A stretch of DNA of 64,000 nucleotides from Candidatus Saccharimonadota bacterium (GTDB taxonomy: Bacteria; Patescibacteriota; Saccharimonadia; Saccharimonadales; UBA10212), in assembly GCA_022841445.1 (NCBI GenBank), contig JALHRM010000001.1:259777-323776 (forward strand). Direction: 5' to 3'. A program made the position numbers and the translations under genes. Shown here piece by piece: positions 2,015-19,281 of this stretch. Position 1 is the stretch's first letter, and every line of letters begins with the position of its first letter. The notes under the pieces are model-generated. The model ran no database searches and was not told where the DNA came from. It saw only the letters and a list, made by a program, of their open reading frames with translations.

Positions 2015-4111
2015 TTAGTTACATTGCCTACATTCTACGTCAGTGAGCAGACCGACAGCCTGGTAGGCTTGTATTGGGTTTATTGCTTTTTCGACGCTGT
2101 ATTCTCTATCATCCGAGCCTGGACCATATAGTTCGAGGTGAATGTGTGTTGGCCCTGCCCAGTCTTTGACACCTCCAATTACATCTCCGGCATTCACGGT
2201 TTGCCCTTCACTGATGGTATCTGAAGGTGATATATGACGAAGTGTCCATAAGCGACCTTCGGTATCACGAACGCTTATCGTACCTCCGAACACCTGCCCG
2301 GTCGCCTTTTGACCAGGGTTTGGGTCGGGGCTTAGCCTTGCGATTTTACCGCTTGCAGGCGCCTTTACGGGACTGTTCGCTGGCGCGAACCAGTCAATTG
2401 CCATATGGAACTTCTGCCCCGAGCTGTTTGGTTGTCCCTCTGCATCGGCGTAGCCGTAACTTCCTCCAGGAGGTTTTGTGTGCAAGATAGGCACAAGACC
2501 ACCTATTGCACTAGCAGACCCACAGCCACTATCGTCGCCCGTTGCACTCGCTGGAGTGTCTGCGCTTGCACCTCCACCCCCGCTGACGCCTGCGTCACCT
2601 AGCAGTTTACGGACACCGTCTTCGATAGTTCTTATATATCTCGGTGTGTCATTCTCAACTGAGGGGGCGTAACGGTTCATGATTTGGCTTATGGTTGTGA
2701 AGTTCGATGGTGGTCCGAGGTACAGCCTTCCCGAAAGAAGCTTGTAATGCTCTTCCATGGCTACGATGATACTGGGATACGGCCCAAATCGTGTTGAAGC
2801 GTTTGAATTATGAGTAACCGCCCAAAAGTTGTATTGTCCCGGCCCTCCCGGCCCGACCAGATCGGTGCGTACGGTGCCAAACTGATACTCTACCTGTGCA
2901 ATAACAACGGGGATGGTTGGGTTAATGTCGTACTGTTGACCAAAACGCACAAAATCATCAGCAAAAGGTATGAGTGGCGAAGAAGGCCATCCTTTTTGTA
3001 TGTATTCTTTTATGGCGGCAGAAAGCGCTGCGGTATCATCAAGCGCAGGGAATCGTACTCCGGTTAATGGCCCTCCGTCGGATGGTCCCCCCAGGCTGGC
3101 ATCACAACAAGCGGGTCCGTCTGGGTCATACAAGGGCGCTTCTAATTCCAAAAGAATGTCGTTTATATTGCTATTTGCGGCAGCCCCCTGCGCTGATTCT
3201 GCGGAAGCTTCGGGTGCGCAGGTGCTATTTGCTGGATCATCACTAGCAACTCCTTGTGCAATAAATTCATAAACCTGTTTAGATAGTCCGGCAATGCGCT
3301 GTTTTGTGGTGGCGAGGTCGGGGTTTTTATTGGTTAAAACCACCAATACGTAGGTTTTATCCCCTGCTTTTACAATTGCTGCATCATGAGACTTACCATT
3401 GCTTACCGAATGAATTTCACCGGTTTTGTTACCAAATTCGGTACCCGGCGGCAGCCCGGCAGGTATTTTTTCTTTATGGTACTGCTGCTTTAAAAGTGCA
3501 TACATCTCTTGTGATGCTCCCTTGCTTAACCACGTTTCTTTGGCGATGTCGCTCATTAGTTTGGCGACATCGTTAGCATTGGTTCTAAGTGGTGAAAAAA
3601 ACGTGCCGGTATAGCCGGGTACTTTTGAATACTTCTTGCGCGCCTCATCTAAAAAGGTCTTGCCACAAATATTGTCGGAGTAAATGACCATTTTATTTAA
3701 ACATTCAGCTACCGTTGCCGACTGGCCGGTGGGAATGCTAGGCCAGATAGCATTTACACAAGCCTGGTTGCCATTGCAGTCACTTACGTTTTCTTCATGC
3801 TGTTCGGCAACATCTTTTAATACAAAACTTTGATTGAAGCGCAAGTTACCGGCCTCCCGTTCTTTGAACAGGTATTCAGCAACAAACAGTTTATACAGAC
3901 TAGCGCTCGTAAAAGACGTACCACCGTTTAGGCGGGCTTCTGAATTGTCGGTTAGGTTGCTAACCACTACTGCGGATCCTGGGTTGTTCCTGCCAAATTG
4001 AGTCACGATTTCGTTTAATGACCCAGGTGCGGCTTCGATTACGACAGTCCCTAAAAGCGTTAACATAGCAGCCGAAAATACAACTACCAAATATTTTTTT
4101 ATACGTTTCAT
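2015..4111 (-). CDS. Secreted three-module cell-wall hydrolase: class-A beta-lactamase/DD-peptidase-like domain, glucosaminidase-like domain, M23 (LytM) metallopeptidase domain
   Basis: Signal peptide MKRIKKYLVVVFSAAMLTLLGTVVIEAAPG. Serine-hydrolase triad of motifs S71-LY-K74, S145-D-N147, K229-T-G231. The central segment YDINPTIPVVIAQVEYQFGT...YNFWAVT resembles the glucosaminidase/FlgJ family. The C-terminus has M23 motifs H569-MAI-D573 and H656-I-H658. Its start overlaps the stop of the upstream gene (ATGA). Confidence 0.8.
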   Translation of the reverse strand: MKRIKKYLVVVFSAAMLTLLGTVVIEAAPGSLNEIVTQFGRNNPGSAVVVSNLTDNSEARLNGGTSFTSASLYKLFVAEYLFKEREAGNLRFNQSFVLKDVAEQHEENVSDCNGNQACVNAIWPSIPTGQSATVAECLNKMVIYSDNICGKTFLDEARKKYSKVPGYTGTFFSPLRTNANDVAKLMSDIAKETWLSKGASQEMYALLKQQYHKEKIPAGLPPGTEFGNKTGEIHSVSNGKSHDAAIVKAGDKTYVLVVLTNKNPDLATTKQRIAGLSKQVYEFIAQGVASDDPANSTCAPEASAESAQGAAANSNINDILLELEAPLYDPDGPACCDASLGGPSDGGPLTGVRFPALDDTAALSAAIKEYIQKGWPSSPLIPFADDFVRFGQQYDINPTIPVVIAQVEYQFGTVRTDLVGPGGPGQYNFWAVTHNSNASTRFGPYPSIIVAMEEHYKLLSGRLYLGPPSNFTTISQIMNRYAPSVENDTPRYIRTIEDGVRKLLGDAGVSGGGGASADTPASATGDDSGCGSASAIGGLVPILHTKPPGGSYGYADAEGQPNSSGQKFHMAIDWFAPANSPVKAPASGKIARLSPDPNPGQKATGQVFGGTISVRDTEGRLWTLRHISPSDTISEGQTVNAGDVIGGVKDWAGPTHIHLELYGPGSDDREYSVEKAINPIQAYQAVGLLTDVECRQCN

Positions 4112-7100
4112 TGTGGGCAGTCCGCCACTGTCGTTAGCCTGTATTGGTCGGCTATCCGAACATGGAAGTGATGATGGTGATTATCTTCGTATTGCATTAC
4201 GCCGGGCAACCCTTTGCTTCTAACATATGTATTAAAATCACTTTGAACAGCAGGGTCATTATAGAATATATACTTTATAATTCCAGTGTCTGCAAACATT
4301 CTGCCCAGGTCTTTACTGGCTTGCACGCTACCGGCAGTATTGGCCGCTATTTGTCCTTGGGTGGTGATGTCTACATCCACACCGTTTTCGTGACTGGCAT
4401 GCCCAGCCGCCGCGTTAAGGTCGCCAACTATAAGTTTATTACTCGGGTATTTTTGATTCCAGGCCTTAGACACTGTATAAATTGCATTTACCAGTTCTTT
4501 GCTACCACAGCGCTCAGTAGGCGGTGTGTTGGGGCTAAAGACGTATTCTCCCCCTGGGGCTTCGGGCATTCTGTAATAATTTGTGCCGGCAACCTGCGTA
4601 GCACCCGGCAAGGATGATAAGCCAACAGAGCCCTTAAAGTAAGGGGTTAGCTCATCATTTACGACTTTTAATGCAACGGCAGGACTGGCTGCTATGTTAT
4701 TTGTTGAATCATACCCATCGCAGAAAGGCGCAAATGTTCCACTAAGGCACTCTGGTGTGACATTACGGTCAACAAGAGTAAACCCTGTAGCTGGATCTCT
4801 CATCAGCAGTGATTTGCGCAGTGGCCCTGTTGCATTAATAATGGTGTTGTATTCACTTGAACCCTGGTTGTGGCCAACCAGAACGGCAACATCGGCTAGG
4901 ATTTCTTGGATGGTCTTATCTGGGTTGCGTTGTCTCGCTACAGCTTCAACTTGAGCGAGGTTAAAATTGGCGAACTGCACGCCGGCCATCCCAATTTGCC
5001 AGAGACCGGCGCTACAAAGCTCAAGAATATTACTCTTTTGCCCTTGACTGCCACAGTTTGAATTACGGTGTGGGTTGCCACCGGGAATGATATTTCCGTT
5101 AAGTATTCCTTCCTTTAGCGACCACCAGGTGACGCGCGCTGCCATTGCTGCTTGTTCATTTGCGCTGCCAGGAAGCCGCGCCATCACATCGTCTTTTATG
5201 TACTTCACCCACCTTACCTCATTAGGATTTAGCGTATAGCCGTTTAGTGAAGTCAGGCTTACATCTCCCGTAGACTCTTCGGCTGTGTCGGCGGCTGGCT
5301 GGCTATTATCGCTGTAACCATCGTCGTCGGTGTACCCAAACCGCGTACCTATGCCACCGCGGACGGCATTGTCTCTTAACCAGCAGTTATGGATTGTTTT
5401 TGCAGTGGTGTCTTCTTGGTCGGGGTCACCAACGGCGGCACCCACTTTCTCGTATACGTAGTCATACCAGTCATTGCTGTTTGTCATAAGTTCCCACGTA
5501 AGTTCAGTGTCTGGTACTCGTGCAACTCCCAGAACCGCTTGGATATTGCTCCCTTGTTTTGGCTGGCTCGTTATGGGTTTAAGCTGGTCACATTCTGGCG
5601 GCCAGTCATAGCTGTCAATGGCGGCTACTTTTGCCCCAGCGTAGGAGTCATTAGTGACCGGCTGGGCGCCGACTCGATTAAATAACATACCTGGTAGTAC
5701 ATTTTTGATGTTAGACAGACTAGAACCTACTACGCTAAAAACGTCCGGCGTGTCGTTTATTCCGTCTGCTGTGCTAAACAAAGTTCTTGAAGCGAGTGAG
5801 TCGTACTGATTAAGTGAAAAGTACCTTTCATTAAAACTCAGGCTGCGGTCGGCCTCGGCGCCAGCAAGGAGCTGTTGAGCATGGTTGGCGCTGGTTGCGG
5901 TTGTGACGGCTGCTCCGAGCATGCGGCTAGTGGATTCGGCGGTATAGGCGGCACCCTGCACGATGTAGTTCATGAACACCCCCCCGGGTTCTAGGCCACT
6001 CAAGATTGGACCCGCACCCAAAAATGCTGCAATCTTGTTGGCGATAATTGACATAAGTCGAGCAAGGTCATCATCAAGACCTAGAACTGCAATAAATTTT
6101 TCAACCACAAAATTTACGGCTCCACCAAAGACTTCAGCTATCTTTAAAATTCCATCGAATATTTTCCCAAAAAACGAATCCCTTGCTGCCCGTACAGCTT
6201 CCGCAATCGGGCCTGTAATTTTGCCGATGGTACTCAGGTAGGCATCTTCCAGTTGTTCGGCGCGATTTGCTGATCCAATAACCGCATCCGGACAGAGGTA
6301 GTGGTACTGCTTATCGTTTTCAATGATTTCTTTTTCGTTTTCAGGGTTAGAAAGTTTAGCTTGATGGTCTGGTTCGCAGTAAGCCGTCCTTCCGAGATTA
6401 CTTGGTCCAGCCGCATATACCTTGCCGGGTTCTGATGCTTCAGCGGATCGAACCGGAGAACTACCAGCCACCGCCACCGCCCAGGCTTCACTATTTGATG
6501 CATTCCCGAGTACTTGCATAAAAGCATCAAATTCTTCTGGAGTGACGTCGCCCTTTATAATTTGGTCTCTGGATGTTTTCATCACCTGATACAAGCCGAC
6601 GGCTTGCGTTGCTTTAGCGACTTGGACGGTTTTGGCGATTGCTCCGCTTCGTATGTTGCTGTCGATTTTTTCGATAAGGTCGACGGTCGCTGCAATGTTT
6701 ACGACACTGAATGCGACGCCGGTGCGTTTAAGTATTTCGCTCAGGAACTCGGCGGTTTTATACGTCTCCGTACCAGTTGTGGTGGTTTGGGTACCGTCTG
6801 GGTTATCGGTTGTCCGAGACGTAGTAATGCTCTGGTCGTTTGTTCCGTTATCACCCACCACTGTTGTGGTGTCTGCTCTATGCTGTGGATCACTCGGGTC
6901 GTCACTCTTTTTACAATCAGACAATCCAAACAGGCAACGGACTAGCTTGCCGTTCTTTGTGCTTTCTGGCAGGGCTTTGTCGAGTATTTTGTTGCGGATA
7001 TTGGTGCGTCTTTCTTCTAGATTGCTACGTGTTTTTTCAAAAAACCGCCAGTCCCTGACACCGGTCATATTTTGAATCGACTTTCTAAGCATGCGCCGCT

Positions 7101-8121
7101 CAAACACTTTATAGAACCGGGTTTCGTCGTGCACAATTTGTTTTATTTGTTTTCTGGCGGCTTTATCATCATTAAAAACCGAAGCATTAACAAACTCGCG
7201 GAGTCTACCATTCATTTGATTGACATCAATATCTGCTACACCTTGGCGTTGAGCTGGAGTTAATCCCAGTTGGTCTGGCCCAAGCACTGCACGGGCTGTT
7301 TTGAACCTTGTATCAAATGTAACTACGGCTGGCCTGAATATAATCTGATTGCCTTCCCTCCTAGCCACGCTAGCAAATTTTATTCCATGCTTTTCAAAAA
7401 CCTGCCGCTCAAACGCCGAAGTCTTTGTGTTTGAACCACGTAGTACCCTGTACCACTTGTAAACGGGGTTGCCTGTATCAACGTTATTTGCACGGAGTAT
7501 TAGGTTGTCAGGGTCGTTGGGTCTGTCTAGGTTTGGGCTGTCGCCTATATCGGCAAGGCGCATTATCATATACGTTCGTATGTATTCATTCGATCTGCCG
7601 TCTAGGTTCCCATTCAGCCTCGCAAACGTACGGGCATCGATATTTTGCAGTAGCGTATCTAATTTGAAAACGTTCAAAAAACCTAAAATTGCAGCTAAAA
7701 CAATAATCAGCGATATTCCGCCGGCACCCAAACTTACAAGCAAACCACGCCGCTTAAGGAAGCTGCGTTTTTCGCCTTTTTTTTCGTCCGAGGCGGTGTA
7801 GTTTATCTGTTCTTCGGGCGGTGTATTTTCCGCATCGCCGTCTTCGTTTTCTTTTTGGTCTAGTTCGTCTGGGTCAAGGTGCTTTTTATCTTTCAGCCCA
7901 GCACCTTCGTTCTCGGTCTCGGCCTGTCTTTTGGCTACTGCTGGGTGGGCAGCATCATCGTATACTTGCTGGCCTGATGGCTTTACTGCACCTGGCTGGC
8001 TTTGTTTTGAACGAAGATGGTCAATTCCCTCTTGACTTGCGGTCGGGATTTGCTCCAACGGATCCTCGGACTTTCTCAGTCTTCCTTGTTTTGATCGAGG
8101 GTCTTGCGTTGACTGAGCCAT
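4108..8121 (-). CDS. Giant (1337 aa) membrane-anchored T4SS-associated protein with a C-terminal LAS/M15-type (VanY-like) peptidase domain; PrgK/TraG-type wall-remodelling analogue
   Basis: Acidic N-terminal ~130 aa, then a single TM (LLVSLGAGGISLIIVLAAILGFLNVF) and a >1100-aa extracytoplasmic region. The C-terminus carries GHASHENGVDVDI ... HHHHFHVRI (H-x-D and H-x-H zinc ligands of M15/LAS peptidases). A weak SLT-like stretch WWSLKEG...SAGLWQIG is tentative only. Confidence 0.75.
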   Translation of the reverse strand: MAQSTQDPRSKQGRLRKSEDPLEQIPTASQEGIDHLRSKQSQPGAVKPSGQQVYDDAAHPAVAKRQAETENEGAGLKDKKHLDPDELDQKENEDGDAENTPPEEQINYTASDEKKGEKRSFLKRRGLLVSLGAGGISLIIVLAAILGFLNVFKLDTLLQNIDARTFARLNGNLDGRSNEYIRTYMIMRLADIGDSPNLDRPNDPDNLILRANNVDTGNPVYKWYRVLRGSNTKTSAFERQVFEKHGIKFASVARREGNQIIFRPAVVTFDTRFKTARAVLGPDQLGLTPAQRQGVADIDVNQMNGRLREFVNASVFNDDKAARKQIKQIVHDETRFYKVFERRMLRKSIQNMTGVRDWRFFEKTRSNLEERRTNIRNKILDKALPESTKNGKLVRCLFGLSDCKKSDDPSDPQHRADTTTVVGDNGTNDQSITTSRTTDNPDGTQTTTTGTETYKTAEFLSEILKRTGVAFSVVNIAATVDLIEKIDSNIRSGAIAKTVQVAKATQAVGLYQVMKTSRDQIIKGDVTPEEFDAFMQVLGNASNSEAWAVAVAGSSPVRSAEASEPGKVYAAGPSNLGRTAYCEPDHQAKLSNPENEKEIIENDKQYHYLCPDAVIGSANRAEQLEDAYLSTIGKITGPIAEAVRAARDSFFGKIFDGILKIAEVFGGAVNFVVEKFIAVLGLDDDLARLMSIIANKIAAFLGAGPILSGLEPGGVFMNYIVQGAAYTAESTSRMLGAAVTTATSANHAQQLLAGAEADRSLSFNERYFSLNQYDSLASRTLFSTADGINDTPDVFSVVGSSLSNIKNVLPGMLFNRVGAQPVTNDSYAGAKVAAIDSYDWPPECDQLKPITSQPKQGSNIQAVLGVARVPDTELTWELMTNSNDWYDYVYEKVGAAVGDPDQEDTTAKTIHNCWLRDNAVRGGIGTRFGYTDDDGYSDNSQPAADTAEESTGDVSLTSLNGYTLNPNEVRWVKYIKDDVMARLPGSANEQAAMAARVTWWSLKEGILNGNIIPGGNPHRNSNCGSQGQKSNILELCSAGLWQIGMAGVQFANFNLAQVEAVARQRNPDKTIQEILADVAVLVGHNQGSSEYNTIINATGPLRKSLLMRDPATGFTLVDRNVTPECLSGTFAPFCDGYDSTNNIAASPAVALKVVNDELTPYFKGSVGLSSLPGATQVAGTNYYRMPEAPGGEYVFSPNTPPTERCGSKELVNAIYTVSKAWNQKYPSNKLIVGDLNAAAGHASHENGVDVDITTQGQIAANTAGSVQASKDLGRMFADTGIIKYIFYNDPAVQSDFNTYVRSKGLPGVMQYEDNHHHHFHVRIADQYRLTTVADCPQ

Positions 8122-8133
8122 CGTTTATTCTTT

Positions 8134-10035
8134 CTATACTCCTGGTGCTAGCGGATTTTGTAGATCTATGGAACCTTGTCCGGCATTAATCTCACCTTGT
8201 TTGATGGCTTGCACCTCGCCAGGGTTAGTGGTTATCAGGCTGGCTTCGGTTGGGCTTGGCACAATCTGAATATGCACATGGTTCTGACCGGCAAAGAATA
8301 ATCCCTGCCCGACAGGGAATTGGCTGAGGCGTTTGCGCTCTTCGCTGGTGAGTTTGAACACATCGGCCAGTACATCCACTGCACTGCTGGATTGCTTCAG
8401 TAGTAGCTGCATAGAGGCGTTGGCGACAATGGCGCGCCCCATGCGTGAGCCGATAAAGTCTTCTACGTCCTGGGTGATAGTGGTAATCCCAAGGTTGTAC
8501 TTGCGAGCGCGCTTGGCAAGTGAAAACAAAAAGTTCGCGCTGTCTTCATATTTCATAAGCTGCCAAGCCTCATCAACGATCAGAATTCGCCGCTTTTGGT
8601 CGCTCTTTGTTTTGTTCCAGATGTAATTGAGCACTATGTACATGGCTACCGGGCGCAACTCGTCTTCAAGGTCACGAATATTAAAAACGACTAACGGATT
8701 ATTAACGCTCACATTGCTCGGCTGGCTGAATATCCCCGCAAACGTACCTGTGGTGTACTTGCGGAGCCGCTGTGATAGCTGCGGGCCAGTTCCTCCCATA
8801 TGGAGCAGTGTGTTGTACAGGTCGGCAATAGTCGGCGGCGGTGAGCCGTGAGTCAGCGGATCATTAGTGATGCCGGCTTTGGCATATGTTTCAATCAGTG
8901 CGGCGTCGAGGTCGGCCTCTTCAACTGGAGTCATAGCCGGAACTGTTGCCATACCCCCGCCCTGCATCTGAGCTTGCGCACCACCCATCATCAATCGTAG
9001 TAAACCGTGCAGGGTTATGAGGTTTGAGCGTAGGGCGTTATCGGCTTCTTCAGAATCCACAACTTGCGGGAGGTCAAATGGGTTGATCCGTGTCGCGCTG
9101 TTGAGGCTGAGCCGAACGTACGCCCCGCCAACGGCGTCACACATGCGCTGATATTCGTTTTCAGGGTCGATAATAAATATCTCAGTACCCATCATTAGGC
9201 TGCGCAGGGCTTCTAGTTTTACGGTAAAGCTCTTGCCCGCACCAGACTTGGCAAAGACAACACTATTGCCGTTTTCTAAGGAAAAGCGATCAAAAATAAC
9301 CAATCCGGAGTTGTGCATGTTGATGCCGTAAAGGATTCCCTTGTCGTCCGACAAATCGGCACTAGTAAACGGAAACGTGGTGCTTAGTGCTCCGGTGTTC
9401 ATGTTGCGGTAAATCTTTAGTTGGTCGGCAAATTGTGGAATCGTACTGTTCAGCCCCTGTTCCTGCTGTGCTGTTGCCGGCTTAGAGTAAACCAGCTGCT
9501 GCCCAAGCAGGGACTCAACCTTATTGCTGACAAACTCCAATTCTTCTTCGGAGTTGCCATACAGCGTAAAGTAAAAACCAAATCGGAAGAATCGTTCTTC
9601 GCCAACCTGCAACTTATCCCGCATTTCCTCGGCGTCGAGGATCTGAGCTTGCTTGCCCGGATCTCGCACTCTCCCCTTTTCGGCATCAATCTGAATGCCG
9701 GCTTCCAGTTGGGTCACTTTCTTTCGGAGGTTATCCAGAACAATTTCGGACCTCACAGGGTAAACCATTAGTGATATGTCCACAATCTCATCCAAATTAA
9801 TCATGCTGCCCAGCCATCCAGTAAATATTTGGCGTGGGTAGCCGTAAACGTAGTATGTTCTGGCAAAGCGGGTTCCTAGCTGGAATAAGTTGCCTTTGAA
9901 CTCGAGAGAACTTGGAGCAATAAAGTCACGCAGCGCCGTGATGCCTTTTTGGAAGGCGGCCTGCACTTCTTGTTGTTCACGGACTTGCTGTTGCTGGGCG
10001 AGCAACACCGGGTCAATCTTTTTTTGCTTAGCCAC
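8134..10035 (-). CDS. virB4: VirB4/TrbE/PrgJ-family type IV secretion ATPase
   Basis: 633 aa. Walker A VVFAKSGAGKSFTVK and Walker B RRILIVDEAWQLM. The N-terminal domain pattern FQLGTRFARTYYVYGYPRQIFTGWL is typical of Gram-positive VirB4 homologues. C-terminal motif GITTITQDVEDF. Confidence 0.85.
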   Translation of the reverse strand: MAKQKKIDPVLLAQQQQVREQQEVQAAFQKGITALRDFIAPSSLEFKGNLFQLGTRFARTYYVYGYPRQIFTGWLGSMINLDEIVDISLMVYPVRSEIVLDNLRKKVTQLEAGIQIDAEKGRVRDPGKQAQILDAEEMRDKLQVGEERFFRFGFYFTLYGNSEEELEFVSNKVESLLGQQLVYSKPATAQQEQGLNSTIPQFADQLKIYRNMNTGALSTTFPFTSADLSDDKGILYGINMHNSGLVIFDRFSLENGNSVVFAKSGAGKSFTVKLEALRSLMMGTEIFIIDPENEYQRMCDAVGGAYVRLSLNSATRINPFDLPQVVDSEEADNALRSNLITLHGLLRLMMGGAQAQMQGGGMATVPAMTPVEEADLDAALIETYAKAGITNDPLTHGSPPPTIADLYNTLLHMGGTGPQLSQRLRKYTTGTFAGIFSQPSNVSVNNPLVVFNIRDLEDELRPVAMYIVLNYIWNKTKSDQKRRILIVDEAWQLMKYEDSANFLFSLAKRARKYNLGITTITQDVEDFIGSRMGRAIVANASMQLLLKQSSSAVDVLADVFKLTSEERKRLSQFPVGQGLFFAGQNHVHIQIVPSPTEASLITTNPGEVQAIKQGEINAGQGSIDLQNPLAPGV

Positions 10036-10056
10036 AATTTACTCCAAAGTTTGTGT

Positions 10057-11064
10057 TCATAGTAGGTTTATCTCTCGGTCAAGGTGTGGCGATGGCGCGA
10101 CCCCCTCGCCTTTAGTTACAATCGGCACGGTTAGATCATTAAAGTTCTTCAATTGTTGGCGGGTAGCCGTATCCGGATTGTAGGCGTCGTAGTACAGCTC
10201 AATAAGTTCTTGAGTATCCAGCGGCAAACCCTGGACGCCGCACTGCATAAGTCCCTGTAAAACGGCCTGCACACGGTTACGAAGTTCGGTTTTTGCTTGC
10301 TCTAGTGTCGCCTCATTGATAACTACTTTTGTTTCTTTGTTTTGGAAAAGTCCCATAAAGTTACTGACGAATCCAGTGCTTTGCTTAACGGCTTTTCTAA
10401 TGTCGTCGTCCGGATCGGGATATGTGATAACGACATAAAATTTCTTGTCCATGATGTTGGTTTGCTGCGAAATATCCGACAAAAAGGCAATGTAGTCTTC
10501 CATCAGCAGAGCAAGCAGCATGTTGTCATGCTCGCTGCGAATTTTGTCCAGTTTCTCTAAGTATGGCCTGATATCAATTCGCTGACTGCGGATAAATATC
10601 TGAATTGGGTAGTACAGCGAATTCAAAAAACCTTGATAGCTAAACTCGACCGCTTCTCGTTCCTGCGGGCTCATAAGATCAAAGTTAATTGCCTTACACA
10701 TCATTACCGCCCGGAATGTGCCATCGCTCATTATTACAATGCCGTCACGAATTTCGGCAATCTGCAGTGTGTTTTGAGTGCTATTCGGGTTCGATTTAGG
10801 CGGCGGGGGTTGCAGGTGCGGAGGCAATGTACCGCCAGGCATCATCTGCTGTCCAGGCATTGGTTGTCCGGGCATTTGCTGCATCGGTGGGTGACCAAAC
10901 TGTGCCGGTTGTGTTGCCCCGGGAGCGGTGCCGTATCCATAAGTCGGCACCGCTTGCGGTATGCTGGCAGCTTGTCCTGTGCCGGTAGTTTGTGGCGCGG
11001 TCATCGGCCTCGTAGGCGGCTGCCCGGGGGGCATAGGCTGTGGTGTTGGCTGCGTCGGATTCAT
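10057..11064 (-). CDS. T4SS-locus protein: Pro/Gln/Met-rich disordered N-terminus plus a ~240-aa domain resembling a VirB4 N-terminal domain without an ATPase
   Basis: 335 aa. Residues 1-95 are low complexity (PMPPGQPPTRP...MPGQPMPGQQMMPGG). The remainder (IAEIRDGIVIMSDGTFRAVMMCKAINFDLMSPQEREAVEFSYQGFLNSLYYPIQIFIRSQ...KKFYVVITYP) parallels, by eye, the N-domain of the adjacent VirB4. No Walker motifs. Confidence 0.6.
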   Translation of the reverse strand: MNPTQPTPQPMPPGQPPTRPMTAPQTTGTGQAASIPQAVPTYGYGTAPGATQPAQFGHPPMQQMPGQPMPGQQMMPGGTLPPHLQPPPPKSNPNSTQNTLQIAEIRDGIVIMSDGTFRAVMMCKAINFDLMSPQEREAVEFSYQGFLNSLYYPIQIFIRSQRIDIRPYLEKLDKIRSEHDNMLLALLMEDYIAFLSDISQQTNIMDKKFYVVITYPDPDDDIRKAVKQSTGFVSNFMGLFQNKETKVVINEATLEQAKTELRNRVQAVLQGLMQCGVQGLPLDTQELIELYYDAYNPDTATRQQLKNFNDLTVPIVTKGEGVAPSPHLDREINLL

Positions 11065-11090
11065 AAATAATTACCCACCTTAGATCACGC

Positions 11091-12521
11091 TTAATGAAGT
11101 GATATGACGACCTCGCCATCGTCATTGACCTGGACTTGCTTTAACTTTCGCTCGGCTTCTTTTGACAGCGTTGCGACGGTAATTTCCTGGTTCAGATCCC
11201 TGTTCTCTGCTAAGTCCATTATAGCAGCTTGGTGGCCTTCGGAAGGAGTATTTTGTTGCTCACCTGTTGACATTGCTGTGACAATATCTAGTTCCTCGGA
11301 CGGTTGGGTTCTGGTGGTTTGTGTCGGCTCGCTTGGTGCCATATCGGGCATAGGAACCGGTGGCAGAACTGCTTGTGGTGAGCTATCTGCTGGCGCGGTG
11401 TCTCGAATAGCCGTATTTACAAGTTCTGGTTCTTGGGGTGGTGTCGCTACGACTGCGGTTGCTGGTTGCTGCATCGGCGGTGGAGTCGCCGGTAGTGGTG
11501 CTTGTTGCGGCGTGGTTACTGCCGGGTCTTGTGGTTGATTGTCGGCTGGCGGAGTTCCGGTGACCAACTGACCGGAGTCAGGCAGTACTGTGTTTAAGTG
11601 AGAACTCAGCCTCGCTTTTTGTTCCTGATCAAGCTGCTGGTGTTTGTGGATTTCTTCAAGTATGGCTTGTTCTTCTGGGTTGTACTGCGACACAACCGAC
11701 GATACGGCGGGGGGCTCTTGCTTGTTTAGGTAGGCCGGTGGTTTGGGTGCTTTAGGCGCCTTTCGAGCAACAGTACCCGTAGTGGGCTGAGTGAGGACAC
11801 CTGCTTGGTTTTGTTGTTTTAGTGTTTCTAGGTCGCTCGGCGCATCAAGCACTGCTTGCCGAGCGGCATCAATTTTACGCAGAATCTCTTTCTTGTAGGC
11901 GGCAGTTTTTTGTTGCACCATGGCATCAACCTGGTGGGCTTTGACGTTACGGTTAGGGTCAAGCATATCGTCTTCGGCTCGTACGGCTATCGTCGGCACG
12001 GCCTGGGGCAAGCTGGCCGAGCGTACTAGTCTATCAGAACCTTGGTCGGTCGGCGGTCCGGAGTATGTGTTTACATTTACATTCTTAACTGCCCAACCGC
12101 GGCTATCTAGTGTGGCGGCCAGTGCTTCGAGCCTGCTTTTTACTTCGTTTTGGCTAAGACCGTCAGTGTAATGTTTTTCTTCGGTTTTAGGAGCGGTTAT
12201 GGTCACTAATTCTTTTAGGCCGGATTGATCCCAGGTATGTCGCTGCGGCTTAAAGTAAAAACTGAGCCGTGCTATCAGCCAGTCTTCTGTTGACTGCACT
12301 CCCCCTAAAGGTGTTGCTAATAATCCAAACAAAAGCATCGGCGGAGTAAAAATAAGCACAAACGGCCACCGAAGCGGACCAAGCCCGGTGGCGGTAACCA
12401 GTTTGAAATTTATAAAAGCAAATATAAGCGCTATTGCCGCATAGACAAAGCCCTTGAGTGTCAAAAACCCGATTAATCGGTCTTCGGACTCAATGTCCTG
12501 AATAACCTTATACACCGCCAT
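11091..12521 (-). CDS. PrgI/VirB3-like T4SS membrane protein with a long Pro/Gln/Thr-rich C-terminal extension
   Basis: The N-terminus MAVYKVIQDIESEDRLIGFLTLKGFVYAAIALIFAFINF... has two TM helices followed by EDWLIARLSFYFKPQRHTW. This matches the PrgI-family layout as I remember it. It sits immediately upstream of VirB4-type genes, as in Gram-positive T4SS. The C-terminal ~300 aa are disordered. Confidence 0.65.
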   Translation of the reverse strand: MAVYKVIQDIESEDRLIGFLTLKGFVYAAIALIFAFINFKLVTATGLGPLRWPFVLIFTPPMLLFGLLATPLGGVQSTEDWLIARLSFYFKPQRHTWDQSGLKELVTITAPKTEEKHYTDGLSQNEVKSRLEALAATLDSRGWAVKNVNVNTYSGPPTDQGSDRLVRSASLPQAVPTIAVRAEDDMLDPNRNVKAHQVDAMVQQKTAAYKKEILRKIDAARQAVLDAPSDLETLKQQNQAGVLTQPTTGTVARKAPKAPKPPAYLNKQEPPAVSSVVSQYNPEEQAILEEIHKHQQLDQEQKARLSSHLNTVLPDSGQLVTGTPPADNQPQDPAVTTPQQAPLPATPPPMQQPATAVVATPPQEPELVNTAIRDTAPADSSPQAVLPPVPMPDMAPSEPTQTTRTQPSEELDIVTAMSTGEQQNTPSEGHQAAIMDLAENRDLNQEITVATLSKEAERKLKQVQVNDDGEVVISLH

Positions 12522-12633: not shown

Positions 12634-14055
12634 CTAGGGGACGAGCTTTGAGATGTCTTTTCGAAGTTGTTTTAGCTTGTCCTTATTTTTTTGAATCTCT
12701 TCGGCAAGTCTTTGCTTGCCGTTTTCGCCAGCCTTAATTCGGTTCATTGCTCTGCTGTCTATGCTGTTTCGCTGCAGCTCCTCGAGTCTACTCAGGGTTT
12801 CTTCGTACGAAGCTCTCATTCGAGCGCCTTCCGCCGAAATCCTAGTGGCTTCGCTACTACCGCCAAGTGACTGAGCTGCCTTTACTTCTGCTGCTACCAT
12901 ATCGTCAATTTTTTCAAGAGGTGCAGCCCCAAATATCACCTTTTCGCGTTCACTTTTACCTGACATCATAGCTTTCATGACAACTTTGGTCTTGCCTTTT
13001 CGCATCCATTCCGCTGTCTTGCTGCCCTTTTCGCCGTTTGTTTGCAGCATACCGTTAAACTTTGCTTCGTTTATGGTGGCTTCGGTTTTAAAACCACCGA
13101 TGTCACTCGTCTTATTTTCTTTATAGCGCTTGGGAGTTGCTTTGGCAAAGGCTAACGCTTTGTTGCCTAGTTTGCGCGCCAGTTTTTTAGCGCGTGCAAC
13201 CTGCTCACCCCCGGCAGATTCTTCGTAATGAGGGCCATTTTTCAGACTTTCTACAGGCATGCGGACTGTTTCGTCGACACCCTGAATTCTTACAAACATA
13301 GCGTCGCTGGCTTCGTCTATCGTGAAGTCGATAATCTCGCCTTCACCCCCGTCGTAAGGTATTTTGTCGCCCTTTTTCCAGCCTTTTTCTCCGGCTGCTT
13401 TTTCGGCAGCATTTACTTCGGCCGGTTCGGGTGCATCTTCAGCTTCGGCACCAACTACTCTTTCGCCCGCAGCTGGGATCGGCGTGGTTGGTTCGGCATC
13501 TTCTGGGCTCGGTGCAGCTTCAGCTGCTGGAGTTTCTCCTAGCAAACCTTTGACTCTCCCATCAGGTGTAAAGACTTCGTTCCAGGGGTCGTTTACGGCA
13601 GGTCTTTCAGCGGGTTCTTCTCCGCCTGTGCCTGCCGCAGGTTTAGCTCGCTCGGAGTCACCCCCCACAATTCGATTACCGCGTACACTCAGAGGCTTTC
13701 GGATTGGGGGCGCAGCTGGCTGAGGTGTGTCTGGTGATGGTTCAGGCACCTCGCGAGTACCAGCGGTTAGTTCAAGTGGGCGTTGTGGCGCTTCGCCGCC
13801 GATAACAAAATCGCTGCCAGGTGTTGGGGTTTCTACTGCAGCACCGCTGGCCGTCCAGTCTATGTCATTTGGCGCGCCAAATGATCGCTCGGATGTCTCT
13901 GGCGGAGCGACTGATTCCCCAGGTTCGAGGTCACTTGCAAGCCCTTCACGATCAACCCCAAGCTGGTGCGCAAGAGCGTCTATTGCATCTGAATCAATAC
14001 CCTCTTGTGGGGCTCGAAATGACTGTCCGTCTTGTCCGGGGGCTTCTGCACTCAT
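12634..14055 (-). CDS. Hypothetical acidic Pro/Ala/Glu-rich protein with a Lys-rich coiled-coil C-terminus (T4SS-locus associated)
   Basis: 473-aa ORF with coding-like composition and no TM segment or catalytic motif. It lies between the VirB6-like and PrgI-like genes on the same strand. The C-terminus reads KQRLAEEIQKNKDKLKQLRKDISKL. Confidence 0.6.
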   Translation of the reverse strand: MSAEAPGQDGQSFRAPQEGIDSDAIDALAHQLGVDREGLASDLEPGESVAPPETSERSFGAPNDIDWTASGAAVETPTPGSDFVIGGEAPQRPLELTAGTREVPEPSPDTPQPAAPPIRKPLSVRGNRIVGGDSERAKPAAGTGGEEPAERPAVNDPWNEVFTPDGRVKGLLGETPAAEAAPSPEDAEPTTPIPAAGERVVGAEAEDAPEPAEVNAAEKAAGEKGWKKGDKIPYDGGEGEIIDFTIDEASDAMFVRIQGVDETVRMPVESLKNGPHYEESAGGEQVARAKKLARKLGNKALAFAKATPKRYKENKTSDIGGFKTEATINEAKFNGMLQTNGEKGSKTAEWMRKGKTKVVMKAMMSGKSEREKVIFGAAPLEKIDDMVAAEVKAAQSLGGSSEATRISAEGARMRASYEETLSRLEELQRNSIDSRAMNRIKAGENGKQRLAEEIQKNKDKLKQLRKDISKLVP

Positions 14056-16525: not shown

Positions 16526-17173
16526 ATGTTGCTTAATAAAATATGGGCACGAAATTTTATGAACGTTGTACTGGCGGTGCTGCTTGTGGCCGGCTTTACT
16601 GCCACAGCAGTAACGTTTCAAATGGGGCTTGCTGAAGCCGCACCTTCGAAATGCTATGCCAGAAACGCGGCGGGTAAAGTCCAGCACTCTTCTTGTAATG
16701 GCTTAACGGCAGCCCAGCGCCGCATAAATGACAAATGCTTTTTAGCGCAAACAATCGGTGGTGCATATACCCAGGCGGGTGATCTTGGTAGTGGAGTCTG
16801 TAATTCTCTGCAACGGCAGGCTCAAGCCGCACCAGCACCTGGAGGAGGTGCTCCAGACGAAGATCAAACGTTGGGTGCAGGTGGCACTGCTGGCTGTAGT
16901 GGCACGGTAAATTTACAGAACTGCGTAAAAAATAATCCAATTGTTACTAAAGTGCTTCGCCCCTTGGTGTTGTTTTTGAGTGCGGTGGTTGCGATTGTAA
17001 TCATAGGTAGTTTAATTGTTGCGGGTATCCAGTATTCTGCAGCACAGGACAACCCTCAGATGGTTCAAAAATCGAAAGATCGTATCCGTAATGCGCTTAT
17101 TGCGCTTGGAGCGTTTATGTTCGCTCTTGCCGGTTTACAGTACTTAATCCCCGGGGGCATAATTAGCTTATGA
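16526..17173 (+). CDS. VirB2/TrbC-like T4SS pilin paralog 1 of 7 (largest, 6 Cys)
   Basis: Signal/TM segment FMNVVLAVLLVAGFTATAVTFQMGLAEA. A 6-Cys, Gly/Ala-rich exposed segment. C-terminal two-helix core LVLFLSAVVAIVIIGSLIVAGIQYSAAQDNPQMVQKSKDRIRNALIALGAFMFALAGL. Confidence 0.65.
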   Translation: MLLNKIWARNFMNVVLAVLLVAGFTATAVTFQMGLAEAAPSKCYARNAAGKVQHSSCNGLTAAQRRINDKCFLAQTIGGAYTQAGDLGSGVCNSLQRQAQAAPAPGGGAPDEDQTLGAGGTAGCSGTVNLQNCVKNNPIVTKVLRPLVLFLSAVVAIVIIGSLIVAGIQYSAAQDNPQMVQKSKDRIRNALIALGAFMFALAGLQYLIPGGIISL

Positions 17174-17589
17174 TCACGTACGCTTTGGCCTGGCTGGTCA
17201 CCACTTTCCCAAGTTTTGCTCAGACTCCGGCGGTATGTGAGAAAAAAGGTTTTCTTGGACTGCCGGCGTGGTATGAATATCTACCCGATGCCGCCTTCAA
17301 GGCGGACGGCGTGGGGGGGTGCTTAATTGATTTAAAGTTCGATGGTCCGGCTGGTCCGAATGTGCTTATACCTATTGGGTTAGCCGTACTAGATGGCTTG
17401 CTAAGAATAGCTGGAGTCGTGGCTGTTATTTTTGTAATCGTTGCTGGATTTAACTTCATAACTTCGGCTGGTAGTCCAGATAAAGCCGCTTCAGCACGGC
17501 AACAAGCTATTAATGCTCTTGTTGGTGCGGCAATTGCCATTAGCGCAGCAGCAATCGTGCAGTTTGTCGGTGGAAGGATTGCTGGATGA
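17170..17589 (+). CDS. VirB2/TrbC-like T4SS pilin paralog 2 of 7
   Basis: ATGA overlap with paralog 1. Signal peptide ...FPSFAQ/T, then 2 Cys. Core GVVAVIFVIVAGFNFITSAGSPDKAASARQQAINALVGAAIAISAAAIVQFV. Confidence 0.7.
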   Translation: MITYALAWLVTTFPSFAQTPAVCEKKGFLGLPAWYEYLPDAAFKADGVGGCLIDLKFDGPAGPNVLIPIGLAVLDGLLRIAGVVAVIFVIVAGFNFITSAGSPDKAASARQQAINALVGAAIAISAAAIVQFVGGRIAG

Positions 17590-17873
17590 TTGAATACTTG
17601 GCGTACCAGATATTTTTTGGAGGCCCAATTAAAGACTCTCTGCCGCAAGTTGCTGCCGACGAAGGAGCATTCGCCAGAGGCCTTAATATTATTTTTGTTC
17701 TGGCGGGTGCAATCACTGTTTTGGTCATAACTGTAGCCGGGCTATTCTACGTACTTTCTCAGGGCGACCCAAGCAAAACATCGCGTGCTAAAAATGCCAT
17801 TATTTACGCAGCGGTCGGGTTGGTTATTATTGTTCTATCTGGAGTCATCGTTAACTTTGTGTTTCAGTTTTAA
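17586..17873 (+). CDS. VirB2/TrbC-like T4SS pilin paralog 3 of 7 (short; no signal peptide, no Cys)
   Basis: ATGA overlap with paralog 2. The 95-aa product is essentially the core only: LNIIFVLAGAITVLVITVAGLFYVLSQGDPSKTSRAKNAIIYAAVGLVIIVLSGVIVNFV. Confidence 0.65.
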   Translation: MIEYLAYQIFFGGPIKDSLPQVAADEGAFARGLNIIFVLAGAITVLVITVAGLFYVLSQGDPSKTSRAKNAIIYAAVGLVIIVLSGVIVNFVFQF

Positions 17874-18283
17874 TGATGAGATGGATAACTAAAAAACTAG
17901 CCATCGTTTTAGCAGCAGTGTTCAGTTTATTGTGTTTATCTGGGTCGGTCGCCTATGCTGGTTTTAACCCTTTGCAAGATGCCTGTAGTGTCCCAAACTC
18001 CGATCAAAGTGCTGTCTGTAAAGAAAAAACTCGCACTGGTAACGATGATCCCATTGCTGGGGATGATGGCATTTTGATAAGAGGCACTCGCGTCATTGCT
18101 ATTGTTGTTGGAGTAGCTGCTACCATCATGATTATTGTTGGCGGCCTAATGTTCATACTGTCCGACGGTAATAGTGATAAGGCGGCGAATGGTAGAAAAA
18201 CTATCATTTACGCAATTGTTGGTATTGTTATTGCGGTGCTCGCCGGCCCTGTTACGCAATTTTTGACAAATCGGGCTCTTTAG
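17873..18283 (+). CDS. VirB2/TrbC-like T4SS pilin paralog 4 of 7
   Basis: TAATG overlap with paralog 3. Signal peptide ending VAYA/G, with Cys pair ACSVPNSDQSAVC. Core IAIVVGVAATIMIIVGGLMFILSDGNSDKAANGRKTIIYAIVGIVIAVLAGPV. Confidence 0.75.
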   Translation: MMRWITKKLAIVLAAVFSLLCLSGSVAYAGFNPLQDACSVPNSDQSAVCKEKTRTGNDDPIAGDDGILIRGTRVIAIVVGVAATIMIIVGGLMFILSDGNSDKAANGRKTIIYAIVGIVIAVLAGPVTQFLTNRAL

Positions 18284-18329
18284 ACATAAGCTACTACAGT
18301 AAACCTAAAAAGTGTAATTTTAAGTAACT

Positions 18330-18728
18330 ATGCGAAACAAAACACTCACAATTTTTGCAACCTTAGCACTTATCGCGACTGTATTGTTCCCCGTTTTCAA
18401 TTACGGGATGGCTAATGCTGGATGCCCGGCGAACGCCAGCCCAAAGGATGCCGTTAATTGTGGTGTACAGGCGGCTGGGGGTGATACTTCTGACCCTGAG
18501 ACAAAGATAAATAGTGCCATTGCAGCTGCTATAAACATTTTTTCTTTCGTGGTTGGTTTTGCAGCAGTCATCATGATTATTGTTGGCGGCTTACGGTACA
18601 TCTTGAGCAACGGCGATAGTCAAAAAGTTTCCAGTGCTAAAAACGCTATTATTTACGCCATTGTTGGTCTGGTTATCGTAGCCTTGGCACAAGTGATTGT
18701 GCGGTACGTTTTTAGCCGGGCAACTTAA
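18330..18728 (+). CDS. VirB2/TrbC-like T4SS pilin paralog 5 of 7
   Basis: Signal peptide ending MANA/G, with Cys pair GCPANASPKDAVNC. Core INIFSFVVGFAAVIMIIVGGLRYILSNGDSQKVSSAKNAIIYAIVGLVIVALAQVIVRYV. Confidence 0.75.
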   Translation: MRNKTLTIFATLALIATVLFPVFNYGMANAGCPANASPKDAVNCGVQAAGGDTSDPETKINSAIAAAINIFSFVVGFAAVIMIIVGGLRYILSNGDSQKVSSAKNAIIYAIVGLVIVALAQVIVRYVFSRAT

Positions 18729-18804
18729 AGCCTCTCCGCCATTGCTTAGCATAGGCGTGTTGTGATATAAGTGTTGTCAGAAGTTAATAAATAAGGAACT
18801 TTAT

Positions 18805-19254
18805 ATGCAAAAAATAAAACAATTTGCAGCCATGGTTGCCGCAAGTATCGCACTTGTTGGGGCTTCCCTGTTTGGGGTAGTGGCTGTTGCTTACGCTGGC
18901 TCAGGCGCCAATATTGATGCCAACCTATGTCAAGGAATAAGTCTTGATGCTAACACCGTGAATACCGCAGGTACTGCACCGGCGGACACATGTAGCGAAG
19001 CGGGCGCCAATGATCGTGTTAACAATATCATCAAAACGATCATAAATATCTTTTCACTAGTTGTGGGTGTTGTATCCGTCATCATGATCATTATTGGTGG
19101 CTTTAAGTACATTACCAGTGGTGGTGAAAGCAGTAACGTTACAAGTGCCAAGAATACTATCCTCTACGCTATCATTGGCCTTGTCGTCGTAGCATTGGCA
19201 CAGATTCTCGTACGATTCGTCTTTAGTCGGGCTACTTCAACTGCTGGACCATAA
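18805..19254 (+). CDS. VirB2/TrbC-like T4SS pilin paralog 6 of 7
   Basis: SD AAGGA lies 8 nt upstream. Signal peptide ending VAYA/G, with Cys pair LCQGISLD...ADTC. Core INIFSLVVGVVSVIMIIIGGFKYITSGGESSNVTSAKNTILYAIIGLVVVALAQILVRFV. Confidence 0.75.
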   Translation: MQKIKQFAAMVAASIALVGASLFGVVAVAYAGSGANIDANLCQGISLDANTVNTAGTAPADTCSEAGANDRVNNIIKTIINIFSLVVGVVSVIMIIIGGFKYITSGGESSNVTSAKNTILYAIIGLVVVALAQILVRFVFSRATSTAGP

Positions 19255-19281
19255 GCTAACAAAAGTGGTATAATATATTTT

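What the first reader, a model, noticed from the sequence alone, without database searches (positions are those of the whole stretch)
10057..11064. Stand-alone VirB4-N-domain-like protein with a prion-like P/Q/M-rich head, encoded between VirB3-like and VirB4
The 335-aa product has a 95-aa low-complexity N-terminus (PQPMPPGQPPTRP...MPGQPMPGQQMMPGG). This is followed by ~240 aa whose sequence pattern tracks the N-terminal (non-ATPase) domain of the neighbouring VirB4. Matching stretches are: DGTFRAVMMCKAINFDLMSPQE vs GTRFARTYYVYGYPRQIFTGWL; FLNSLYYPIQIFIRSQRIDIRPYLEKL vs MINLDEIVDISLMVYPVRSEIVLDNLRKKV; KKFYVVITYP vs RFFRFGFYFTLYG. It has no Walker motifs. I am not aware of a described T4SS component consisting of a free VirB4 N-domain. 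It could cap or extend the VirB4 hexamer, or replace a missing inner-membrane-complex subunit.
Basis: inference. Interest (0 to 1): 0.55.

Follow-up and report, generated by a model that had tools for sequence, protein, structure and literature searches.

The report
Split-off first piece of VirB4 (TrsD-like)
This gene encodes the first ~200 residues of the type IV secretion ATPase VirB4 as a separate protein, an arrangement already described as "TrsD" in Gram-positive plasmids and in this bacterial phylum, so it is an ordinary member of a known family.

Summary
The 335-aa ORF (10057-11064, minus strand) and its ~95-aa P/Q-rich head are real. The claimed sequence likeness to the N-terminus of the neighbouring VirB4 is not above chance.

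The ordered part (residues ~96-310) is homologous to the N-terminal ~200 residues of full-length VirB4 proteins. The 633-aa neighbour lacks that piece. The two window proteins align end to end, without overlap, on fused VirB4s of 788-867 aa. Their predicted folds match R388 TrwK/VirB4 residues 15-205 and 209-406. A complex prediction passes its controls (0.75 against 0.00).

This is the TrsD arrangement of pSK41. A match was found in 191 of 201 sampled genomes of the phylum. It is already published for Patescibacteria, where TrsD homologues sit next to virB4 with no assigned function (PMC12102498).

The head varies in length and sequence among relatives and is proline-rich, so it is not prion-like.

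One open point remains. The two halves of the VirB4 N-domain show the same order of secondary-structure elements, so they may be an ancient structural repeat. I could not test this by superposition.

The parts
10057..10779 (-). Ordered domain of the TrsD-like protein (residues 96-335 plus the stop codon). It is the first subdomain of the VirB4 N-terminal domain. Residues from about 310 onward are modelled with low confidence.
10780..11064 (-). P/Q/G/T/M-rich low-complexity head (residues 1-95), probably disordered. Its DNA is 62.5% GC against 45.2% for the rest of the gene.
   Evidence: Composition and comparison with the heads of relatives come, GC content. The head was left out of the fold, so disorder is inferred from composition and from its lack of conservation.
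11075..11081 (-). AAGGTGG ribosome-binding site, 10 nt before the ATG at 11064. The stop codon of the upstream gene lies at 11091-11093.
   Evidence: Read directly from the sequence.
8134..10035 (-). Short-form VirB4 ATPase (633 aa, GTG start, GGAG at 10042-10045). It begins with the second subdomain of the N-domain.
11091..12521 (-). PrgI/VirB3-like membrane protein (476 aa) with a long P/Q-rich tail. It is the likely partner that wraps the TrsD-like domain.
   Evidence: Pfam PrgI is matched at E 0.0096, below the cut-off. Homologue P0121 is a PrgI plus TrsD-like fusion carrying a precomputed PF12666 label. The partner role is inferred from R388 VirB3-VirB4 (PMC9259494).
16526..19755 (+). Seven tandem T4SS pilin (VirB2-like) genes on the opposite strand, part of the same locus.
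   Evidence: Pfam T4SS_pilin PF18895 is matched at E 1.5e-7 to 1.4e-14 in all 7 ORFs.
2015..8121 (-). Two large downstream genes. One is 1337 aa with a weak M74-like peptidase end. The other is 698 aa with Beta-lactamase2 and M23 peptidase domains. They are the likely cell-wall hydrolase (VirB1-like) part of the locus.
   Evidence: Pfam results are. The same order, VirB4 then a large protein then an M23 peptidase, is found on Geobacillus plasmid pGspE55-1.

Best explanation
The gene encodes a TrsD-like protein, which is the first of the two alpha/beta subdomains of the VirB4 N-terminal domain made as a separate polypeptide. The next gene encodes the rest of VirB4: the second subdomain plus the ATPase.

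Shown here:
- Homology of the target to the N-terminus of full-length VirB4s.
- Absence of that piece from the neighbour.
- Wide conservation of the split arrangement.

Inferred:
- The two polypeptides assemble non-covalently into a normal VirB4 protomer. In the predicted complex, strand residues 64-70 of the domain model (protein residues 153-159) pair antiparallel with VirB4 residues 86-92.
- The reconstituted N-domain sits at the membrane face of the VirB4 hexamer. There the PrgI/VirB3-like protein encoded just upstream wraps it, as VirB3 wraps the TrwK N-domain in R388.
- The P/Q-rich head is a variable disordered tail or spacer, not a folded or prion-like module.
For: 1. Family models place the two proteins end to end. 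NCBIfam: target 97-228 matches CD1110 VirB4 model positions 2-132, and the neighbour matches 176-733. With Mbov_0397 the ranges are 99-249 and 289-600. With TraC-F-type they are 118-183 and 301-781.
2. Fused homologues exist. Target 93-331 aligns to P0122 8-238 (35% identity, E 2e-43), and the neighbour's 25-611 aligns to P0122 288-860 (52% identity). Target 96-303 aligns to P0123 9-209, and the neighbour's 29-608 to 215-780. A PrgI+TrsD fusion (P0121) and a PrgI+TrsD+VirB4 fusion (P0126) also exist.
4. The complex prediction gives ipSAE 0.75, 0.74 and 0.75 in three runs, with a best control of 0.00. That mark was reached by 58 of 80 solved complexes and 2 of 110 mismatched pairs. The runs agree in at least 79% of contacts, and the partner's pLDDT is at least 68. 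Because full-length VirB4 is solved, this pass may reflect likeness to that structure.
5. The arrangement is conserved. 191 of 201 sampled genomes of the phylum have a match, and 168 of 174 high-quality ones do. Open frames in the listed rows are 206-437 aa, except one of 953 aa that resolves into two ORFs. VirB4 lies directly downstream on the same strand in 16 of 20 distant loci and in 9 of 11 close loci; the other 2 close loci end before it. At least 7,904 near-length homologues were found, and 2,248 clusters at 50% identity.
6. The same order occurs outside the phylum. pSK41 has a weak PrgI-like ORF (Pfam PrgI E 0.0011, below cut-off), then trsD (227 aa), then a DUF87 VirB4 (672 aa). hhalign of the target profile to TrsD gives probability 88%, E 3e-6, 175 columns. 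The VirB4 profile aligns to the pSK41 VirB4 from residue 33 of both. Geobacillus and C. perfringens plasmids have PrgI, then a 318- or 312-aa hypothetical protein, then a DUF87 protein of 636 or 641 aa.
7. Literature. TrsD homologues next to virB4 in Patescibacteria are reported as essential in Ca. S. epibionticum ML1 (PMC12102498, passages). VirB3 wraps the VirB4 N-terminal domain (PMC9259494, passages).
Against: - Binding of the two polypeptides is predicted, not measured, and the pass could come from the model's memory of full-length VirB4 structures.
- The NCBIfam TrsD/TraD model is matched far below its curated cut-off (29.7 against 200 bits). The tie to pSK41 TrsD is therefore remote: hhalign probability is 88%, not above 95%.
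- In 4 of 20 distant loci no VirB4 lies within about 2.3 kb, under code 11 or code 4. The protein can therefore be encoded apart from VirB4.
- Local Pfam gives no hit for the target. The precomputed label PF26593 could not be inspected because the model is not in the local library.
- The role of the head is untested.
Confidence: 0.85

Rival explanations
1. One reading: an extra, paralogous free copy of the neighbour's own N-domain that caps or extends the VirB4 hexamer, or replaces a missing inner-membrane subunit.
For: Weak fold hits of both models include FAD-linked oxidase/dehydrogenase entries and OSCA1.2 (8t56_A).
Against: No sequence or profile similarity was found. The neighbour lacks the region that the target supplies: alignments to fused VirB4s and to TrwK are colinear and do not overlap. 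The protein therefore completes the N-domain and does not duplicate it.
Confidence: 0.04
2. Artefact: a full-length virB4 broken in this assembly by a frameshift or a nonsense error.
For: The two ORFs are only 21 nt apart on one strand, and fused forms exist elsewhere.
Against: The split is the rule: 191 of 201 genomes have short open frames, and 25 loci have separate ORFs. Each ORF has its own ribosome-binding site and start codon. The MNP... start recurs in most of the 25 close homologues printed. The same split occurs in pSK41 and in Bacillota plasmids.
Confidence: 0.01
3. A VirB4-derived domain that has taken on a separate role, such as an assembly chaperone, a dosage or regulatory subunit, or an adaptor that uses the P/Q-rich head. 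It would bind VirB4 or PrgI only transiently and would not be a fixed part of each protomer.
For: In 4 of 20 distant loci it is not next to VirB4, and the paper notes the same for Gracilibacteria. Heads vary from about 0 to 214 aa. In R388 only the six central VirB4 subunits bind VirB3, so unequal stoichiometry is conceivable. The literature assigns no function.
Against: The predicted interface is large: 323-333 contacts, including a shared beta-sheet. That is typical of a permanent domain-domain contact. Fused forms show the same piece working as a covalent part of VirB4. The domain is highly conserved, at 73-81% identity among the 119 other close homologues listed.
Confidence: 0.1

Closest known systems
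TrsD of pSK41/pGO1 (NCBIfam NF041427, TrsD/TraD family conjugative transfer protein)
   Same: - It is a small ATPase-less protein encoded between a weak PrgI-like ORF (the position of TrsC) and a short-form VirB4 of 672 aa.
- It shows profile-profile homology over 175 columns (probability 88%, E 3e-6).
- The VirB4 partner starts at the same point as the window's VirB4.
   Different: - The similarity is remote: 21% identity in the alignment, and the NCBIfam score is far below the cut-off (29.7 against 200 bits).
- pSK41 TrsD has no long P/Q-rich head (227 aa in total).
- It serves plasmid conjugation, whereas the Patescibacteria system is chromosomal and reported as needed for epibiotic growth (PMC12102498 and PMC12857230, passages).
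Patescibacteria TrsD homologues (Microb Genom 2025, PMC12102498)
   Same: Same phylum-wide family. It lies next to virB4 and is described as remotely homologous to the VirB4 N-terminal portion. The window gene is 73-81% identical to the 119 other homologues listed, some of them named Saccharimonadales or Saccharibacteria.
   Different: Nothing substantive. In the passages I read, the paper assigns no function and does not state that TrsD and short VirB4 are complementary pieces. I did not see its Table S3, so I cannot say whether this very gene is listed there.
N-terminal domain of full-length VirB4 (R388 TrwK, PDB 7o42/8rtb; CD1110-family VirB4 of Bacillota ICEs)
   Different: Here it is a separate polypeptide with an added disordered head, and identity to TrwK is only 10-12%.

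Membership tests
TrsD/TraD family (NCBIfam NF041427) | Score at or above the curated cut-off of the NF041427 model (200 bits) | tested here: not met
   The score is 29.7 bits, E 5e-7, with residues 96-215 matching model positions 15-144 of 201. It is a remote relative, not a member of this NCBIfam subfamily in the strict sense.
TrsD/TraD family (NCBIfam NF041427) | Homology to the prototype pSK41 TrsD over most of its length | tested here: met
   hhalign of A1 against pSK41 TrsD gives probability 88.2%, E 3e-6, 175 columns, TrsD residues 31-216 of 227.
TrsD/TraD family (NCBIfam NF041427) | Gene placed between a VirB3-like gene (TrsC/PrgI) and a short-form VirB4 gene (TrsE) | tested here: met
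   The window order is a PrgI-like gene (weak), the target, then a 633-aa VirB4. pSK41 has a weak PrgI-like ORF (E 0.0011), trsD, then a 672-aa DUF87 protein.
VirB4 N-terminal domain, first subdomain (precomputed label PF26593) | Sequence homology to the N-terminus of full-length VirB4 proteins | tested here: met
   E 2e-43 to P0122 residues 8-238 and E 2e-40 to P0123 residues 9-209. NCBIfam CD1110 model positions 2-132 are matched.
VirB4 N-terminal domain, first subdomain (precomputed label PF26593) | Fold matches the solved VirB4 N-domain | tested here: met
VirB4 N-terminal domain, first subdomain (precomputed label PF26593) | Match to the Pfam model PF26593 itself | not testable with these tools
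   The label is listed as precomputed for the identical protein P0001 and for all 120 listed homologues. The model is absent from the local Pfam copy. I do not know its name.
VirB4 ATPase (whole protein) | Walker A and Walker B motifs and the P-loop domain | tested here: not met
   The target has no Walker A or B motif and no P-loop family hit. The neighbour has both.
Prion-like domain (definition recalled: Q/N-rich, proline-poor, usually conserved as a module) | Q/N-rich and proline-poor composition, conserved among orthologues | tested here: not met
   The head has P 28%, Q 15% and 3 N in 95 residues. Head length measured by one rule is 79 for the target, with a median of 27 in 120 close homologues and a median of 5 (maximum 214) in 129 cluster representatives. 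No prion predictor was available.
   No such family appeared in Pfam, NCBIfam or PHROGs or among the fold matches. Absence from these lists does not exclude them, but the VirB4 match explains the whole ordered domain.

The most novel reading that the evidence does not exclude
The membrane-proximal N-domain of VirB4 may be an ancient tandem repeat of one alpha/beta fold forming a pseudo-dimer. The two halves share the element order three strands, (helix), strand, two helices, strand, helix, strand, helix. In the predicted complex the equivalent fourth strands pair antiparallel. In TrsD-type systems the first repeat has become a separately encoded subunit that could be dosed separately. Its variable P/Q-rich head, which forms the linker to PrgI in the fusion P0121, would then act as a tether or spacer. 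That would let the cell complete only some VirB4 protomers, for example central against outer ones. I found no mention of such a repeat in the R388 structure paper: the words 'duplication' and 'subdomain' each occur 0 times.
Probability: 0.2. Interest if true: 0.45.

Novelty: already known. Interest (0 to 1): 0.2.

Why it matters
The T4SS of Saccharibacteria is reported as essential for their epibiotic growth, and the literature gives TrsD no function (PMC12102498 and PMC12857230, passages). Reading TrsD as the detached first half of the VirB4 N-domain gives that orphan protein a concrete structural role: it completes the surface that binds VirB3. The reading also makes a simple prediction, that the short VirB4 should be incomplete without it. 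This clarifies a known component and does not reveal a new kind of component.

Tried and rejected
- **Direct paralogy with the neighbour's N-terminus.** BLASTP, hhalign and a block-permutation test of my own profile aligner were all negative. An hhalign '-glob' run gave only a trivial 2-column alignment and was discarded.
- **Sequence search of the PDB.** The target alone and its 57-sequence profile each gave 0 hits at E <= 10. The structural link came only from fold search.
- **Local Pfam.** It gave no family for the target. The same was true for pSK41 TrsD and the Geobacillus homologue.
- **PHROGs.** It gave one weak hit, phrog_2666 terminase large subunit, at E 5.8e-5 over residues 116-217. 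I treat this as noise or as mislabelled VirB4-like sequence.
- **VirB8/PrgL or lipoprotein.** Nothing of the kind appeared.
- **Alternative genetic code.** I tried it to explain the 4 loci without an adjacent VirB4. tblastn with code 4 found none either.
- **PF26593.** It could not be looked up in the local library, and no paper in the library holds that term.
- **Literature on TrsD.** The NAR 2014 paper cited for the TrsD-VirB4 homology does not contain 'TrsD' in its main text as held. The J Mol Biol 2025 paper on Gram-positive T4SS predictions is not in the library. Either could already state the split-gene reading.

Full report
**1. What is there**

The minus strand carries an ATG-started 335-aa ORF at 10057-11064. 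An AAGGTGG site lies 10 nt upstream of the start, and the stop codon of the preceding gene lies 26 nt upstream.

The surrounding minus-strand genes, in order of transcription:
- a 746-aa protein and a 473-aa protein with no family match;
- a 476-aa PrgI/VirB3-like membrane protein (Pfam PrgI E 0.0096, below the cut-off);
- the target;
- 21 nt further on, a 633-aa VirB4 with a GTG start, a GGAG site, Walker A at residue 262 and Walker B at 484;
- a 1337-aa protein with a weak M74-like peptidase end;
- a 698-aa protein with Beta-lactamase2 and M23 peptidase domains.

Seven T4SS-pilin genes lie on the other strand at 16526-19755.

The genome is 1.10 Mb in 37 contigs and holds one copy each of the target and of VirB4. 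The closest named homologues are from Candidatus Saccharimonadales and Saccharibacteria.

**2. The observation**

The low-complexity head is real. Residues 1-95 are P 28%, Q 15%, G 12%, T 12% and M 8%. The target has no Walker motifs.

The claimed tracking of the neighbour's N-terminal sequence does not hold:
- BLASTP gives a best E of 6.2.
- hhalign of a 57-sequence profile of the target domain against a 26-sequence profile of VirB4 residues 1-235 gives probability 0.15%.
- In my own profile-profile alignment, 114 of 150 permutations of the neighbour's secondary-structure blocks scored as well as the true order.

**3. What it is**

NCBIfam models place the two window proteins end to end on full-length VirB4:

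| Model | Target matches positions | Neighbour matches positions |
|---|---|---|
| CD1110 family | 2-132 | 176-733 |
| Mbov_0397 family | 99-249 | 289-600 |
| TraC-F-type | 118-183 | 301-781 |

A search for longer relatives found 6 proteins with E <= 0.001 among 1,072 candidates. Four are 775-867-aa VirB4s. One is a PrgI+domain fusion (P0121, 711 aa). One is a PrgI+domain+VirB4 fusion (P0126, 996 aa).

Pairwise BLASTP against two of the fused VirB4s shows the same end-to-end layout:

| Fused protein | Target residues → fused residues | Neighbour residues → fused residues |
|---|---|---|
| P0122 (867 aa) | 93-331 → 8-238 (E 2e-43) | 25-611 → 288-860 |
| P0123 (788 aa) | 96-303 → 9-209 | 29-608 → 215-780 |

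The two window proteins are therefore colinear, non-overlapping parts of one VirB4.

Structure agrees with this:
- The structure paper defines the TrwK N-terminal domain as residues 15-400 (PMC9259494, passage).

**4. Conservation**

- At least 7,904 near-length proteins match at E <= 0.001. The other 119 of the 120 listed are 73-81% identical and 246-324 aa long.
- An exhaustive HMMER search finds 2,248 clusters at 50% identity. Only 1 of the best 150 is longer than 600 aa.
- In a sample of the phylum, 191 of 201 genomes have a match, and 168 of 174 high-quality ones do. One of the 191 is the unpublished genome G154. Open frames in the listed rows are 206-437 aa, apart from one of 953 aa (G078). 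My ORF parse resolves that one into separate ORFs of 242 and 698 aa.
- VirB4 follows directly on the same strand in 16 of 20 distant loci. It also does so in 9 of 11 close loci; the other 2 close loci end before it.
- In 4 distant loci no VirB4 lies within about 2.3 kb under code 11 or code 4.

**5. Outside the phylum**

tblastn finds 109 plasmid records, led by Bacillus (42) and Clostridium (21), with a few haloarchaeal and actinomycete records, all below 60% identity.

Geobacillus pGspE55-1 and C. perfringens pJFP838A show this order: PrgI family protein, then a hypothetical protein of 318 or 312 aa, then a DUF87 VirB4 of 636 or 641 aa, then a large protein. In Geobacillus an M23 peptidase follows.

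pSK41 has a weak PrgI-like ORF, then trsD (227 aa), then a 672-aa DUF87 VirB4. The target profile aligns to TrsD with probability 88%, E 3e-6, over 175 columns. The VirB4 profile aligns to the pSK41 VirB4 from residue 33 of both. The NCBIfam TrsD model is matched only weakly, at 29.7 bits against a cut-off of 200.

**6. Literature**

PMC12102498 (passages read; supplements not seen) makes these statements:
- TrsD was the most abundant T4SS component found in Patescibacteria, with 2,272 homologues, of which 1,664 were associated with VirB4.
- It has no assigned function.
- It is listed as essential in Ca. S. epibionticum ML1.

The gene is therefore a member of a described family.

In the passages I read, the complementarity of TrsD and short VirB4 is not spelled out. 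I could not read the J Mol Biol 2025 paper on Gram-positive T4SS predictions, so I do not claim it is unpublished.

**7. Mechanism**

In R388, VirB3 wraps the N-terminal domain of the central VirB4 subunits, and the tails of VirB8 bind the outer ones (PMC9259494, passages). By homology, the TrsD-like domain would supply the first half of that surface.

The complex prediction supports docking onto the short VirB4. The scores are 0.75, 0.74 and 0.75 with a best control of 0.00. That mark was reached by 58 of 80 solved complexes and 2 of 110 mismatched pairs. The runs agree in at least 79% of contacts, and the partner's pLDDT is at least 68. The lowest-error contacts are an antiparallel pairing of domain-model residues 64-70 with VirB4 residues 86-92. 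Because full-length VirB4 structures exist, this pass may reflect likeness to them and is not independent evidence.

The natural fusions PrgI+TrsD, TrsD+VirB4 and PrgI+TrsD+VirB4 argue that the three act together.

**8. The head**

I measured head length by one rule: the start of the match to the domain profile. By that rule the target's head is 79 residues.
- It is the longest among the 120 close homologues (median 27; 22 of 120 reach 40 or more).
- Among 129 cluster representatives under 600 aa the median is 5 and the maximum 214, and 16 reach 80 or more.

Heads of 30 residues or more are P/Q/A/G-rich in both sets. In P0121 a P/Q/M-rich stretch links the PrgI part to the domain.

I read the head as a variable disordered tail. 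With 28% proline and no conservation it is not prion-like, by the recalled definition of that term.

**9. A loose end**

The two AF2 models show the same order of elements, apart from a long versus a short first helix and one extra, low-confidence helix in the target. The predicted interface pairs the two fourth strands antiparallel.

This pattern would fit an ancient internal repeat of the VirB4 N-domain. There is no sequence support for it, and I could not superpose the models.

**10. Verdict**

This is a real gene and an ordinary, already described component of this type of T4SS.

Noticed in passing
window 8134-11064; AF2 models: The first subdomain (the target) and the second subdomain (VirB4 residues 1-235) of the VirB4 N-domain have the same order of strands and helices. 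Their fourth strands pair antiparallel in the predicted complex. This may be an ancient tandem repeat, but there is no sequence signal for it.
   Followed up: partly
window 11055-11064 and homologues P0002-P0025: Most of the 25 close homologues printed start with MNP (often MNPNQ/MNPxQ), even though the rest of the head varies in length and sequence. This could be a short conserved N-terminal motif or just shared ancestry.
   Followed up: no
window 16526-19755 (+): There are seven consecutive T4SS-pilin (PF18895, VirB2-like) paralogues, divergent from the VirB4 operon. The review PMC12857230 mentions a cluster of 6 pilin genes in the S. epibionticum locus.
   Followed up: partly
window 434-1504 (+): A RecF-like gene (SMC_N, E 1.9e-20) lies about 0.5 kb from the end of the T4SS locus. 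This fits the published remark that the Patescibacteria T4SS often lies near the replication origin. No origin was looked for.
   Followed up: no
window 11091-12521 (-) and 12634-14055 (-): The PrgI-like protein carries about 370 residues of P/Q/A/T-rich low-complexity tail after its membrane hairpin and ends in a short conserved motif (...ISLH) that is also present in P0121. The 473-aa protein upstream is likewise mostly low-complexity (P/E/A-rich) and has no family match.
   Followed up: no
L017, L021, L024, L029 (genomes G060, G149, G167, G182): In these genomes the TrsD-like gene has no VirB4 within about 2.3 kb under code 11 or code 4. This echoes the published exception for Gracilibacteria. 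What lies next to the gene there was not examined.
   Followed up: partly
L037 (Salinigranum rubrum plasmid) and other haloarchaeal plasmids: Haloarchaeal plasmids encode stand-alone homologues of the domain at 23-25% identity over 83% of the query, annotated as hypothetical (336 aa in Salinigranum). The split form therefore also occurs in archaeal conjugation-like loci.
   Followed up: no
window 10057-11064, NCBIfam hit: There is a weak match of residues 251-301 to the actinobacterial SCO6880 family (E 0.0045), and a tblastn hit in an Embleya replicon. Actinomycete T4SS-like loci may have a related separate piece.
   Followed up: no
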